A stretch of DNA of 64,000 bases from Vicinamibacteria bacterium (lineage in GTDB: Bacteria; Acidobacteriota; Vicinamibacteria; Marinacidobacterales; Marinacidobacteraceae), in assembly GCA_963555995.3 (NCBI GenBank), contig OY821641.1, forward strand, positions 1,088,001 through 1,152,000, written 5' to 3'. Below, piece after piece: positions 62,300-64,000 of this stretch. The position numbers and the translations under genes were made by a program. Below the pieces are notes generated by a model that saw nothing but the letters and a program-made list of their open reading frames with translations, searched no databases and had not been told where the DNA came from. Position 1 is the first letter of the stretch; every line of letters starts with the position of its first letter.

Positions 62300-62508
62300 C
62301 TGGGGCTCTCGCCGGTGCGGCTTGCCGAGCGCTTCGCGCGGCTGGCGAACCGGCGCAGGATCGGATCCGAGTACTCGCGGGAGTTGAACCAGCGGCGCAA
62401 CTCCTCCCCGGACATTCCGGCGATTTCGGCGCTGATTCCGTCCCGGATCTTCCGCACGCTCGCCACGCAGTCGAAGTCCTTTGGCTTCCTTTCCGGGTCA
62501 TTCGTCAT
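62296..62508 (-). CDS. Small putative antitoxin, paralog 1 (directly downstream of the PIN domain)
   Basis: DFDCVASVRKIRDGISAEIAGMSGEE; overlaps the HsdM-PIN stop by 11 bp. Confidence 0.75.
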   Translation of the reverse strand: MTNDPERKPKDFDCVASVRKIRDGISAEIAGMSGEELRRWFNSREYSDPILRRFASRAKRSASRTGESPR

Positions 62509-64000
62509 CGGGTAGCTCCCACGGAGACTGGATCGTAACCGGCCGGTACCCCATCTCGCGGTTCACCGCGTCGAAGATCGGGATGCGCCGCCGGTTGACG
62601 ATGTGCTGGAAGTTCCAGCTCACCAGCACATCCGCCCCCGAGACGGTGGCGAGGGCGATGTGGAGGGCGTCGGCGTACATCCGGTCGGTAAGCGCGCCGC
62701 GGTCAATGTATTGGCGGGCGAGGCCCCGCGCGGTCTCGGCGTCTTCAAGCAACTCGGTGTTCGCTGGAGGCACCGCATCAAGCGCCTCCCGCACCCGGGC
62801 GGGCGCCTTCTTGAGTTCCTCGAGCAGGACCGGCGAGAGGAGGAGCGTCACTTCCCCCTGGGCGCACCGCTCCAGCAGCCGGCGTGACGCCTTCTGGAAC
62901 TTTGCTTCCTCGCAGCCGCCGATCACCGACGTGTCCACGTAGATGCGGCGCTTCCCGTAGGGGGCGCGCGGTTCGGCCACCATCAGGCCGTCGAGGAGCC
63001 CCTCGGTCTGCCGTTCGAGCGCCAGGATGTCGGCCCCGATCTCCGCGAGCGTCCGCATCGGCTGCGGCTTGTAGAAGGTGCGGTTGAAGCTGATCTCGTA
63101 GCCGACCTTCACCGCCTCGGGCCGGTACCAGGCGTCCGGGGCGTAGGGCAGCACCTCGCGCCGGAGGAACGCTTCGATGCCGCCCTCCTCCAGCAGCGGG
63201 ATCTGCTCCGTGTCGCGGAGGTCGGTGTCCGGCTCGTACTCCACCACCGCCCGCCGGCCGCCCACGGTCGCTTCGAAGCGGCCCCGCAGCGGGTCGGGTT
63301 CCGTCCCCCGCCCCAGGACCTTGCGGATGACCGCCGGCGCGTTCTCGCCGCGCTCGCCGTCCTCCTTCAGGCGCTTGATCTCGGCGGCCTTGTAGGCGCG
63401 GCCCGGGTCCGCGCCCTCGATGCGAAGCGGGCGCTCGACCGTCACCTTCCAGTAGCCGAAGGCGGCGTTGTCGAAGATCCGGCTCTCGGCGGTCTCCTCG
63501 AAGGCGAGGAAGGCGTCGCAGATGCGGGCGATGTCCGCTTCCGCGAGCTCGCGGTTCTTCTTGCCCAGGTTCTTGCGGAGCGGCCGGAACCAGCCGGTGG
63601 CGTCCAGCAACTGCACCTTGCCCCGGCGGTGCTCCGGCTTGCGGTTCGTGCAGACCCACACGTAGGTCGCGATTCCGGTGTTGTAGAAGAGGTTCAGCGG
63701 GAGGGCGACGATGGCTTCCAGCCAGTCGTTCTCGATGATCCAGCGCCGGATGTTGCTCTCGCCCTGGCCGGCGTCGCCGGTGAAGAGCGAGCTGCCGTTG
63801 TGGACCTCGGCGATCCGGCTTCCGAGCGGGGTGTGCTCCTTCATCTTGGAGAGCTTGTTGACGAGGAACAGGAGCTGGCCGTCGCTCGAACGGGTGACGA
63901 GCGAGAACTCGGGATCGCCCGCGTGTTCGATGACGAAACGGGCGTCCCGCATGTCCTTCTTCCCGCCCATCCGTTCGAGGTCCGTCTTCCAGCTCTTGCC
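62498..64000 (-). CDS. hsdM: Type I R-M methyltransferase (5' end outside window) fused in frame to a C-terminal PIN domain
   Basis: GKSWK.., DGQLLFL, NGSSLFTGDAG.GES.IRRW, FYNTGIATY, KVGYEISFNR.FY, then with no stop IYVDTSVIGG..LEEL..DALHIALAT..LVSWNFQHIVN. Confidence 0.9.
   Translation of the reverse strand, partial: GKSWKTDLERMGGKKDMRDARFVIEHAGDPEFSLVTRSSDGQLLFLVNKLSKMKEHTPLGSRIAEVHNGSSLFTGDAGQGESNIRRWIIENDWLEAIVALPLNLFYNTGIATYVWVCTNRKPEHRRGKVQLLDATGWFRPLRKNLGKKNRELAEADIARICDAFLAFEETAESRIFDNAAFGYWKVTVERPLRIEGADPGRAYKAAEIKRLKEDGERGENAPAVIRKVLGRGTEPDPLRGRFEATVGGRRAVVEYEPDTDLRDTEQIPLLEEGGIEAFLRREVLPYAPDAWYRPEAVKVGYEISFNRTFYKPQPMRTLAEIGADILALERQTEGLLDGLMVAEPRAPYGKRRIYVDTSVIGGCEEAKFQKASRRLLERCAQGEVTLLLSPVLLEELKKAPARVREALDAVPPANTELLEDAETARGLARQYIDRGALTDRMYADALHIALATVSGADVLVSWNFQHIVNRRRIPIFDAVNREMGYRPVTIQSPWELPDDE

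What the first reader, a model, noticed from the sequence alone, without database searches (positions are those of the whole stretch)
62498..64000. Type I methyltransferase fused in frame to a PIN toxin: candidate self-guarding R-M system
Seen: the canonical HsdM end (GYEISFNRTFY..ILALERQTEGLLDGL) continues without a stop through MVAEPRAPYG into a complete PIN domain of about 150 aa. The expected active-site residues are present (D of YVDTS, E of LEEL, D of ADALH, N of SWN). Two overlapping antitoxin-like genes follow, with hsdS and hsdR intact downstream. Known: PIN domains are RNases, and PrrC is an RNase held latent by a Type I R-M complex and released by a phage anti-restriction protein. 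Inference: a covalently tethered RNase could trigger abortive infection when the methylase complex is attacked (e.g. by Ocr/ArdA-like DNA mimics). I do not know of a described HsdM-PIN fusion. Caveat: the ATG at 62983 could start a separate PIN protein, making the fusion an incidental stop loss.
Basis: partly seen in the sequence, partly recalled or inferred. Interest (0 to 1): 0.85.

Follow-up and report, generated by a model that had tools for sequence, protein, structure and literature searches.

The report
Restriction methylase with tethered PIN nuclease
A DNA-methylase subunit of a bacterial Type I restriction system carries a PIN nuclease domain on its tail, a fusion kept in about a hundred protein clusters from several phyla; the nuclease is predicted to be held in check by a small protein encoded right behind it and would likely act as a back-up growth-arrest switch.

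Summary
On the minus strand, hsdM (815 aa in full; it starts beyond the window's end) runs without a stop from its last helix, through about 14 variable residues, into a 150-aa PIN domain. Independent short-read contigs confirm the junction.

The fusion is not an incidental stop loss. 105 other database proteins carry the same PIN behind an HsdM. They include loci titled Acidobacteria, Latescibacterota, Thermoanaerobaculia, Vicinamibacterales and Pseudohongiella. The residue at the proposed internal start is Met in only 37 of 94 members.

The PIN folds like VapC toxins and keeps D671, E710, D759 and N778.

PIN plus a roughly 60-aa protein of no known family is a two-gene cassette. It also occurs free-standing in unrelated contexts. 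The small gene overlaps the PIN stop in fused and free forms alike, and it is predicted to cover the PIN active site (ipSAE 0.78, best control 0.00).

hsdS and hsdR are intact. The "self-guard released by anti-restriction proteins" idea remains untested.

I found no paper describing an HsdM-PIN fusion; adjacent vapC genes and a PrrC-like role have been proposed. I rate it a new variant of a known kind.

The parts
62999..64000 (-). hsdM, methyltransferase part (residues 316-649 of the 815-aa protein; the gene starts outside the window at coordinate 64945)
   Evidence: Pfam N6_Mtase E 9e-18. PADLOC MTase_I PDLC03029 E 6.7e-231. Motif I D227-G234 and NPPY 312-315 are invariant in 94 of 94. The full-length model aligns to solved HsdM chains: 7vru_B Z 29.1, rmsd 4.1, 431 aligned; 7bto_A model 5..657 on chain 11..507.
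62957..62998 (-). Linker (residues 650-663), equal to the native C-terminal tail of HsdM; holds the non-conserved ATG at 62983
   Evidence: pLDDT is below 50 for residues 650-663 in the full-length model and 48 in the PIN-only model. Length between the L654 and Y669 equivalents is 13-17 residues in 91 of 94 members and 33-40 in 3 of 94. Non-fused relatives end 8-12 residues after the same helix.
62498..62956 (-). PIN (VapC-like) nuclease domain, residues 664-815, plus stop codon
   Evidence: D671, E710, D759, N778 and H762 are kept. About 50% identical to a free-standing family of roughly 152 aa.
62296..62508 (-). Small protein s70 (70 aa), candidate PIN inhibitor/antitoxin; its ATG overlaps the PIN end by 11 nt
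   Evidence: Family found directly behind the PIN in 13 of 13 fused loci and 8 of 11 close free-standing PINs. Conserved overlap and GGAG-like site. Predicted complex ipSAE 0.78 against best control 0.00. No Pfam, NCBIfam or PADLOC hit.
62063..62299 (-). Small protein s78 (78 aa), second copy of the same family; 4-nt overlap with s70
61334..61939 (-). 201-aa ORF of unknown status (possibly not a gene)
   Evidence: No hit in Pfam, NCBIfam or PADLOC. No relative in any fetched locus. No usable Atlas hit.
59771..60450 (-). Ordinary vapB-vapC pair (cargo between hsdM and hsdS), unrelated to the fused PIN
   Evidence: VapC: Pfam PIN 1.9e-10, NCBIfam VapC 5.2e-21. VapB: NCBIfam 4e-6, below cut-off.
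59406..59678 (-). Third copy of the small-protein family (s90)
58534..58746 (-). 70-aa gene directly before hsdS; recurs behind hsdM in other loci
   Evidence: phmmer hits in L093, L026, L021, L060, L071, L025, L020, L024 (E 7e-31 to 7e-15) and, weaker, L019 (E 2.1e-7). No family hit.
57053..58537 (-). hsdS specificity subunit
   Evidence: Pfam Methylase_S 2e-6. PADLOC Specificity_I 3.5e-86.
54037..57063 (-). hsdR restriction/motor subunit (1008 aa)
   Evidence: Pfam HSDR_N, SWI2_SNF2, ResIII, T1R_D3-like. PADLOC REase_I 8e-41.

Best explanation
The gene encodes a Type I restriction-modification methylase subunit whose own C-terminal tail continues in frame into a VapC-like PIN nuclease domain; this conserved fusion is predicted to be kept inactive by the small proteins encoded right behind it and would likely work as a toxin-type fail-safe tied to the restriction complex.

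Shown:
(1) The fusion is in frame and conserved.
(2) The PIN and the small gene together form a two-gene cassette that also exists free-standing. In the fused form the PIN's start codon has been replaced by the tail of HsdM.
(3) The methylase motifs, hsdS and hsdR are intact, so the R-M system looks functional.
(4) The PIN keeps its metal-binding residues.

Predicted:
(5) The small protein binds over the PIN active site and places its two invariant arginines near E710 and D759, as antitoxins of VapC toxins do (that comparison is recalled knowledge).

Inferred:
(6) Each M2S1 or R2M2S1 complex carries two tethered, inhibited RNase domains.
(7) When the inhibitor is lost (for example through shut-off of host expression during infection) or the complex is disturbed, the PIN cuts RNA and stops growth, backing up restriction.
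(8) The covalent link keeps the amount and location of the toxin tied to HsdM.
For: Fusion and conservation:
- 815-aa ORF.
- 106 proteins (query included) at E<=1e-3 among 3307 candidates of 448-1427 aa match the PIN part; 105 of them carry PF02384.
- 94 are full length (774-899 aa), with D671 94/94, E710 94/94, D759 93/94, N778 94/94.
- Linkers vary (13-17 aa in 91; 33-40 aa in 3) but stay in frame.
- The junction codon is ATG in 7 of 13 loci and CTC, TTT, TTC or GTC in 6. The residue is Met in 37 of 94.

Spread:
- 6 of the 80 closest hsdM loci in species-representative genomes are fused. Their record titles name Acidobacteria, Latescibacterota, Pseudohongiella, Thermoanaerobaculia (2) and Vicinamibacterales.
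- 5 of 401 genomes of the window's phylum have long open frames, one of them with a TAG.

Fold:
- PIN model pLDDT 91.6; VapC toxins head the PDB matches.
- In the full-length model the last HsdM helix (633-650) is followed by residues 650-663 at pLDDT below 50, then the PIN at 85-94.
- The HsdM part aligns to solved HsdM chains up to their C-terminal ends (7bto_A model 5..657 on chain 11..507; 2y7c_B 3..663 on 1..514).

Cassette:
- Free-standing family of about 152 aa: 780 hits at E<=1e-3.
- The small gene lies behind the PIN in 13 of 13 fused loci and in 8 of 11 close free PINs.
- The same overlap and GGAG-like site occur in both forms, and free PINs start M(K/R)PRIY.
- Free cassettes sit beside unrelated genes: sulfatase, CreD, a lyase.
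- Natural single-chain fusions of a PIN paralogue to the small protein occur in 4 genomes.

Predicted complex of PIN with the small protein:
- Score 0.78 (runs 0.80, 0.78, 0.75); best of 3 controls 0.00.
- The tool's mark was reached by 116 of 157 solved complexes and 2 of 215 mismatched pairs. My own alignments were used, so these counts hold only roughly.
- The runs agree in at least 93% of contacts; partner pLDDT is at least 71.
- The interface includes PIN residues 17-19, 56, 100-105 and 123-126 (D671, E710, D759 and N778 in full-length numbering) and small-protein residues 21-26. R19 and R22 of the small protein are invariant in 50 of 50.

R-M integrity: hsdS in 6 of 6 and full hsdR in 5 of 6 fused genome-contig loci.
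Against: - No experiment and no RNA data.
- Pfam's PIN models score below their cut-offs, and the fourth active-site position is Asn, not an acidic residue.
- 73 of the 80 closest hsdM loci have no such PIN within 7 kb.
- The PIN has been lost repeatedly. L029 and L112 keep the fused-type linker without the PIN; L033 has it broken. It is therefore dispensable for the R-M system.
- The small protein has no DNA-binding domain or known antitoxin family, and it lies downstream of the toxin, unlike VapB.
- The complex prediction is a model's confidence, not a measurement. Solved VapBC complexes may help the PIN side of the model.
- Nothing shows that the HsdM part senses anything or regulates the PIN.
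- A plain addiction-module reading explains most of the data except the long maintenance of the in-frame link.
Confidence: 0.55

Rival explanations
1. A selfish toxin-antitoxin cassette landed in the cargo hotspot between hsdM and hsdS and became fused by loss of the hsdM stop. It only stabilises the locus (addiction) and has no role in defence; the link to HsdM is neutral.
For: The cassette is mobile and occurs in unrelated contexts. The hsdM-hsdS gap of this subfamily often holds cargo; here it holds vapBC and other genes. The PIN has been lost several times. On the HsdM tree of 165 tips the fused/non-fused state changes 15 times.
Against: A neutral fusion should break up often. Instead the frame is kept while the PIN diverges to 46% identity and the linkers change length. 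The 15 state changes are far fewer than in shuffled labels (mean 50.8, minimum 41 of 200). The fused PINs group together on the PIN tree, though with weak support (0.35).
Confidence: 0.25
2. The PIN is an auxiliary nuclease of the restriction complex that acts on invading nucleic acid (RNA, flaps or R-loops at the bound site), not a toxin for the host.
For: It is tethered to a DNA-bound, translocating complex. PIN-like domains include DNA flap nucleases (recalled knowledge). PMC5499597, section 17 (read whole), raises PIN nucleases as possible restriction modules but says this is not shown.
Against: The nearest structures are VapC toxins. The same PIN exists free-standing with a dedicated small partner predicted to block its active site, which is how toxins are handled. 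hsdR is present in 5 of 6 fused loci, so no extra nuclease is needed.
Confidence: 0.1
3. The PIN is made as a separate protein from the ATG at 62983, and the fusion is an incidental stop loss.
For: An ATG stands at 62983, and 7 of 13 loci have ATG there.
Against: Met at that position occurs in only 37 of 94 members. 6 of 13 loci have CTC, TTT, TTC or GTC. The nearest GAGGGG lies 15 nt upstream of the ATG. No stop separates the parts in 105 other proteins. Free PINs start about 11 residues further in, at M(K/R)PRIY.
Confidence: 0.03
4. The PIN domain is catalytically inactive and serves as a scaffold or regulatory module, for example binding the small proteins to control operon expression or complex assembly.
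For: The fourth active-site residue is Asn. Pfam scores are sub-threshold. Some neighbouring PIN paralogues have lost catalytic residues: V for D in L112, C for N in L022.
Against: D671, E710 and D759 are kept in 94, 94 and 93 of 94 fused members, and in 94, 94 and 92 of 95 in the wider family alignment. This is as expected for an active metal site.
Confidence: 0.05

Closest known systems
PrrC anticodon nuclease embedded in the EcoprrI Type Ic hsd locus
   Same: An RNase effector is encoded inside a Type I hsdMSR locus, next to hsdM. The proposed role is a second line of defence when restriction fails (passages of PMC3710099, PMC12707154 and 10.1101/2024.01.29.577857).
   Different: PrrC is a separate protein with an ABC ATPase plus a HEPN domain, held latent non-covalently by the R-M complex, with no antitoxin. 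Here a PIN domain is covalently fused to HsdM and has its own small candidate inhibitor. Activation by an anti-restriction factor is shown for PrrC and untested here.
Ronin (RonA with HsdMS; bioRxiv 10.1101/2023.04.06.535777, passages)
   Same: A toxic effector is neutralised by, and genetically tied to, HsdM/HsdS, and is triggered by anti-restriction proteins.
   Different: Ronin lacks hsdR, and its effector is a free 61-aa membrane peptide. Here hsdR is present and the effector is a fused nuclease domain with a separate inhibitor.
VapBC type II toxin-antitoxin systems
   Same: PIN fold closest to VapC toxins. Conserved D/E/D site. A translationally coupled small partner is predicted to cover the active site.
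   Different: The partner lies downstream, not upstream, has no recognisable DNA-binding domain and matches no VapB or other family. It often occurs in 2-4 tandem copies. The toxin is fused to a methylase.
vapC/hicA genes adjacent to Type I R-M (Thiohalocapsa; PMC9296519) and PIN genes co-transcribed with Type I R-M (PMC5499597, section 17)
   Same: Association of PIN RNase toxins with Type I R-M operons. The first paper proposes a PrrC-like fail-safe (passages; section read whole).
   Different: Those are separate genes, reported as lacking antitoxins. Neither text, in what I read, reports an in-frame HsdM-PIN protein. The stored (cut) supplement of PMC5499597 holds no 'N6_Mtase' or 'PF02384'.
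HEPN RNase domains fused to R-M components (PMC3710099)
   Same: RNase domains are covalently joined to R-M subunits and interpreted as PrrC-like back-up effectors.
   Different: [quoted passage not shown] Here the partner is the methylase and the RNase is a PIN.

Membership tests
Type I R-M methyltransferase subunit (HsdM) | HsdM_N plus N6_Mtase domains, with AdoMet motif I and catalytic NPPY | tested here: met
   PF12161 and PF02384 are precomputed for P0001. N6_Mtase E 9e-18. PADLOC MTase_I 6.7e-231. D227 and N312-P313-P314-Y315 are 94/94. NCBIfam equivalog TIGR00497 scores only 82.4 against a cut-off of 242.75, so this is a different HsdM subfamily from that model.
Type I R-M methyltransferase subunit (HsdM) | Fold like solved HsdM subunits | tested here: met
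   7vru_B Z 29.1, rmsd 4.1, 431 aligned. 3lkd_A Z 28.9. EcoR124I 7bto_A Z 24.4.
Type I R-M methyltransferase subunit (HsdM) | Encoded with hsdS and hsdR | tested here: met
   hsdS at 57053-58537 and hsdR at 54037-57063 on the same strand.
Type I R-M methyltransferase subunit (HsdM) | Methylates DNA as M2S1 | not testable with these tools
   Needs methylome data or an enzyme assay.
PIN domain / VapC-like nucleases | Match to Pfam PIN models above the gathering score | tested here: not met
   PIN_3 22.9 bits (cut-off 27); PIN 21.6 bits (cut-off 23.6). Some relatives do carry PF01850 or PF13470 in precomputed Pfam.
PIN domain / VapC-like nucleases | PIN fold (parallel sheet flanked by helices) | tested here: met
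   Model pLDDT 91.6 and pTM 0.86. 25 PDB matches at E<=0.001, VapC toxins first.
PIN domain / VapC-like nucleases | Three conserved acidic residues plus a fourth polar or acidic one | tested here: met
   D671 94/94, E710 94/94, D759 93/94; the fourth is N778, 94/94. That these positions are the catalytic ones follows from motif position, not from a superposition.
PIN domain / VapC-like nucleases | Metal-dependent nuclease activity | not testable with these tools
   Needs an enzyme assay.
Type II toxin-antitoxin module | Toxin and partner in one translationally coupled operon, found as a mobile pair | tested here: met
   The small gene overlaps the PIN stop in fused and free loci. The pair occurs in unrelated contexts.
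Type II toxin-antitoxin module | Partner binds and blocks the toxin | tested here: inconclusive
   Prediction only: ipSAE 0.78 against best control 0.00, with the interface over D671, E710, D759 and N778. Natural fusions of a PIN paralogue to the small protein occur in 4 genomes. No measurement.
Type II toxin-antitoxin module | Antitoxin of a known family with a DNA-binding domain (VapB-like), upstream of the toxin | tested here: not met
   No Pfam, NCBIfam or PADLOC hit for s70 or s78. Atlas clusters are 'hypothetical protein' with no common Pfam family. The gene is downstream.
Type II toxin-antitoxin module | Toxicity rescued by the partner | not testable with these tools
   Needs expression tests.
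PrrC/EcoprrI-type guard | ABC-ATPase plus HEPN anticodon nuclease | tested here: not met
   The effector is a PIN domain with no ATPase.
PrrC/EcoprrI-type guard | Effector latent in the R-M complex and released by an anti-restriction factor | not testable with these tools
   Needs genetics with Ocr, ArdA or Stp-like proteins.
Ronin | hsdMS without hsdR, plus the small membrane toxin RonA | tested here: not met
   hsdR is present. The small proteins here are predicted inhibitors, not the toxin.

The most novel reading that the evidence does not exclude
HsdM-PIN is a single-polypeptide guard. The methylase subunit, which phage anti-restriction proteins must attack, carries its own RNase, and a new family of roughly 60-aa arginine-bearing inhibitors holds that RNase off. 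Disturbing the M2S1/R2M2S1 complex, or losing the inhibitor, frees two PIN domains to pair up and shut down translation. Together with the rarer HsdM-Ymh(HEPN) fusions, this would make the HsdM C-terminus a general docking point for abortive-infection RNases. That would overturn the view that RNase domains join only the nuclease and motor parts of R-M systems.
Probability: 0.25. Interest if true: 0.85.

Novelty: new variant of a known kind. Interest (0 to 1): 0.66.

Why it matters
Embedded effectors such as PrrC and Ronin show that Type I R-M complexes can hold a toxin latent. How the complex and the effector communicate is hard to study because the contact is non-covalent.

This family differs in useful ways:
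- The effector is part of HsdM itself.
- The inhibitor is a separate, tiny, unnamed protein.
- Nature supplies ready-made controls: the same HsdM without the PIN, the same PIN without HsdM, and the PIN fused to its inhibitor.

This makes 'does an R-M complex regulate an attached RNase?' directly testable.

The family also adds an unannotated PIN plus small-protein cassette with hundreds of members. It shows that databases label these 815-aa proteins merely as 'N-6 DNA methylase' or 'type I restriction enzyme M protein'. And it contradicts a published generalisation that RNase domains in R-M systems do not fuse to methylases (PMC3710099).

Tried and rejected
There is therefore no full census of architectures.
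- No RNA holder was listed for the stretch, so there is no evidence on expression.
- Laid contigs are fragmented across the conserved hsdM part because many related hsdM genes are present in the same samples. No single piece spans all of 62300-63400. Indels listed at 63112-63124 come from contigs under 95% likeness.
- The sigma-70 promoter scan of L006 5000-9600 found 0 sites (0.2 expected) and 4 terminator-like sites (2.4 expected). This is uninformative.
- Pfam, NCBIfam and PADLOC gave nothing for the small proteins, the 201-aa ORF or the 70-aa gene. The Atlas gave no usable hit for the 201-aa ORF.
- Earlier scan notes hold nothing on this locus or on HsdM-PIN.
- I looked in PMC3874165 for a statement that the HsdM C-terminus contacts HsdS and found none in the passages shown. 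That point stays recalled knowledge.
- Sequence search of the PDB matches only the catalytic core, residues 133-487.
- The internal-start reading was rejected (see rival explanations).
- Multiple independent fusions were considered. On the PIN tree, the smallest clade holding all 106 fused tips also holds 17 of 82 non-fused tips, with node support only 0.35. One origin followed by losses and fissions is likely, but not proven.
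Full report
WHAT IS THERE

The feature lies on the minus strand. An ORF at 62498..64000 runs off the window's end. In the window's own genome the complete ORF is 815 aa (L006 6498-8945), so the gene starts at window coordinate 64945.

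The sequence reads ...ILALERQTEGLLDGL, then MVAEPRAPYGKRRIYVDTS..., with no stop.

A second hsdM in the same genome ends canonically, without a PIN (L007).

Short-read contigs from three public runs of two studies bridge the junction with no difference: X1 62860-63068, X2 62928-63068, X5 62891-63041. The best holders may be the source sample itself. No RNA run was listed.

THE TWO HALVES

The N-terminal 650 residues are a Type I HsdM:
- Pfam N6_Mtase, and precomputed PF12161 plus PF02384.
- PADLOC MTase_I, E 6.7e-231.
- Motif I and NPPY are invariant.
- The AlphaFold2 model aligns to solved HsdM chains (7vru_B Z 29.1; EcoR124I 7bto_A Z 24.4, model 5..657 on chain 11..507).

The last 150 residues score below Pfam's PIN cut-offs, but they fold confidently (pLDDT 91.6). 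The best PDB matches are VapC toxins.

D671, E710, D759 and N778 are kept in 94, 94, 93 and 94 of 94 fusion proteins.

In the full-length model the last HsdM helix (633-650) is followed by residues 650-663 at pLDDT below 50, and then by the well-folded PIN. The PIN is therefore a tethered domain. Non-fused relatives of this HsdM end 8-12 residues after the same helix, so the 'linker' is simply HsdM's own tail. Free-standing PINs of the family begin M(K/R)PRIY, exactly where the fused PIN begins.

NOT AN ACCIDENT

I searched the PIN part alone against proteins of 448-1427 aa.
- This gave 106 proteins at E<=1e-3 among 3307 candidates, the query included. 105 carry PF02384, and the PIN part is 32-87% identical.
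- I aligned the 94 of full length (774-899 aa). The 12 left out are 453-669 aa; 11 carry PF02384 and one has no Pfam entry.
- The linker is 13-17 residues in 91 and 33-40 in 3, always in frame.
- The residue at the proposed internal start is Met in 37 of 94.
- At DNA level the codon is ATG in 7 of 13 loci and CTC, TTT, TTC or GTC in 6.

A separately translated PIN is therefore not a conserved feature.

Spread in genomes:
- Among the 80 best loci of this HsdM subfamily in species-representative genomes (about 5900 stretches estimated), 6 are fused. Their record titles are Acidobacteria bacterium, Latescibacterota, Pseudohongiella, Thermoanaerobaculia (2) and Vicinamibacterales. One (Longimicrobiales) has the PIN broken into two frames. 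73 have no such PIN within 7 kb.
- Among 41 relatives, 9 have a PIN match. This tally includes the window's genome and one unpublished genome, G033, with a weak partial match.
- Among 401 genomes of the phylum, 17 match at E<=1e-15. Five of these have long open frames (one with a TAG) and eight have free frames of 155-177 aa.

A TWO-GENE CASSETTE

The PIN belongs to a large free-standing family of about 152 aa (780 hits; about 50% identity; named only 'PIN domain protein').

The three small ORFs in the window (62296-62508, 62063-62299, 59406-59678) are one family. Its invariant and near-invariant positions are F12, D13, R19, R22, E36 and P49. It has no Pfam, NCBIfam or PADLOC match, and the Atlas clusters are all 'hypothetical protein'.

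A profile of this family finds a copy directly behind the PIN in 13 of 13 fused loci, in 1-4 tandem copies. It also finds one behind 8 of 11 close free-standing PINs.

In both settings the small gene's ATG lies a few bases before the PIN stop, behind a GGAG-like site inside the PIN's last codons.

Free cassettes sit next to unrelated genes: sulfatase, CreD, a lyase, a DNA methylase.

In four genomes a second PIN paralogue is fused in frame to the small protein itself.

A structure prediction of the PIN with s70 passed the tool's test:
- Score 0.78; best of 3 controls 0.00.
- The mark was reached by 116 of 157 solved complexes and 2 of 215 mismatched pairs. This holds only roughly, because my own alignments were used.
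- The runs agree in at least 93% of contacts, and the partner's pLDDT is at least 71.
- The interface covers the four active-site positions, and the stretch following the invariant arginines (residues 21-26) touches E710 and D759.

This supports binding but does not show it.

EVOLUTION

On a PIN tree, the smallest clade holding all 106 fused tips also holds 17 of 82 non-fused tips, with node support 0.35.

On an HsdM tree of 165 tips the fused/non-fused label changes 15 times, against a mean of 50.8 (minimum 41) in 200 shuffles.

Two non-fused genes (L029, L112) still carry a fused-type linker, and one genome (G018) has the PIN with the linker but without HsdM.

The simplest reading is one old fusion followed by spread among very similar hsdM genes, with repeated loss or fission. 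This is an inference.

HOW IT LIKELY WORKS

Shown: a functional-looking R-M operon whose methylase carries a VapC-like domain with an intact metal site, followed by coupled small genes.

Predicted: the small protein blocks the site.

Inferred: each methylase or restriction complex carries two inhibited RNase domains, and loss of the inhibitor or disturbance of the complex frees them to cut RNA and arrest growth.

I commit to this toxin-type fail-safe reading at about 0.55. Long maintenance of the in-frame link argues for a functional tie to HsdM.

That the HsdM C-terminal helix packs against HsdS in solved complexes is recalled, not tested. The alignment to complex-bound chains reaches their C-terminal ends.

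WHAT IS KNOWN

Three searches for a described HsdM-PIN fusion listed no paper that reports one. What I read:
- PMC5499597: section 17 whole, plus passages. Its supplement was searched; it was cut when stored. It reports PIN genes co-transcribed with Type I R-M.
- PMC9296519 (passages): reports vapC/hicA genes adjacent to Type I R-M without antitoxins and proposes a PrrC-like fail-safe.
- PMC3710099 (passages): states that HEPN RNase domains fuse to nucleases, helicases and ATPases of R-M systems 'but not to the methylases'.
- Ronin (10.1101/2023.04.06.535777, passages) and PrrC (PMC12707154 and 10.1101/2024.01.29.577857, passages): the nearest working models. Both have non-covalent effectors.

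The concept is therefore known. The covalent HsdM-PIN architecture and its small partner family appear undescribed.

VERDICT

This is a new variant of a known kind, with interest 0.66.

Noticed in passing
L057 8920-9930 (+); proteins P0249, P0250, P0251: In another locus of the same HsdM subfamily, the last 56 residues of HsdM run in frame into a Ymh domain (PF09509, E 1.2e-43). PMC3710099 classes this family as HEPN RNases. The hsdM in L057 has a frame break, but database proteins P0250 (917 aa; PF12161, PF02384, PF09509) and P0249 (707 aa) show the HsdM-Ymh fusion. A second, rarer RNase-type domain therefore uses the same attachment point.
   Followed up: partly
L022 9608-10423; L100 2658-3449; L104 112-993; L112 1264-2145: Single-chain fusions of a PIN paralogue to the small protein lie just behind the HsdM-PIN gene, or behind an hsdM that has lost its PIN, in four genomes. 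Some have lost active-site residues (V for D in L112, C for N in L022).
   Followed up: partly
L013 (genome G018) 491-2154 (-): A PIN that still has the fused-type linker but no HsdM in front, followed by four tandem small genes and then the start of an hsdM gene. This looks like a rearranged descendant of the fusion.
   Followed up: partly
window 58790-60923: The gaps between the cargo genes are filled with GC-rich palindromic and dispersed repeats, for example arms 60621-60677 / 60748-60804 (84% complementary). Similar repeat-derived peptide motifs recur in ORF lists of other parts of the genome (L006, L007). This is probably a REP-like element family.
   Followed up: no
window 58534-58746 (-): The 70-aa gene directly before hsdS has no family assignment. 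It recurs right behind hsdM in eight other loci (E 7e-31 to 7e-15) and more weakly in a ninth, L019 (E 2.1e-7). It may be a regular accessory of this R-M subfamily.
   Followed up: no
L020-L099: This HsdM subfamily is 62-85% identical to the window's protein across many bacterial phyla and in archaea (record titles Methanosarcina, Methanolobus, Methanotrichaceae). hsdS often lies 1-5 kb behind hsdM. This suggests a widely transferred system with a cargo hotspot between hsdM and hsdS.
   Followed up: no
L007 7425-8582 (-): Directly upstream of the genome's second, non-fused hsdM lies a 385-aa ORF with an HPFLDGNGRIGR stretch. This resembles the Fic-domain motif; the motif is recalled and was not checked against Pfam.
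   Followed up: no
window 61334-61939 (-): The 201-aa ORF between the small genes and the repeats has no relative in any library or fetched locus. It may be a spurious high-GC frame or an orphan gene.
   Followed up: partly
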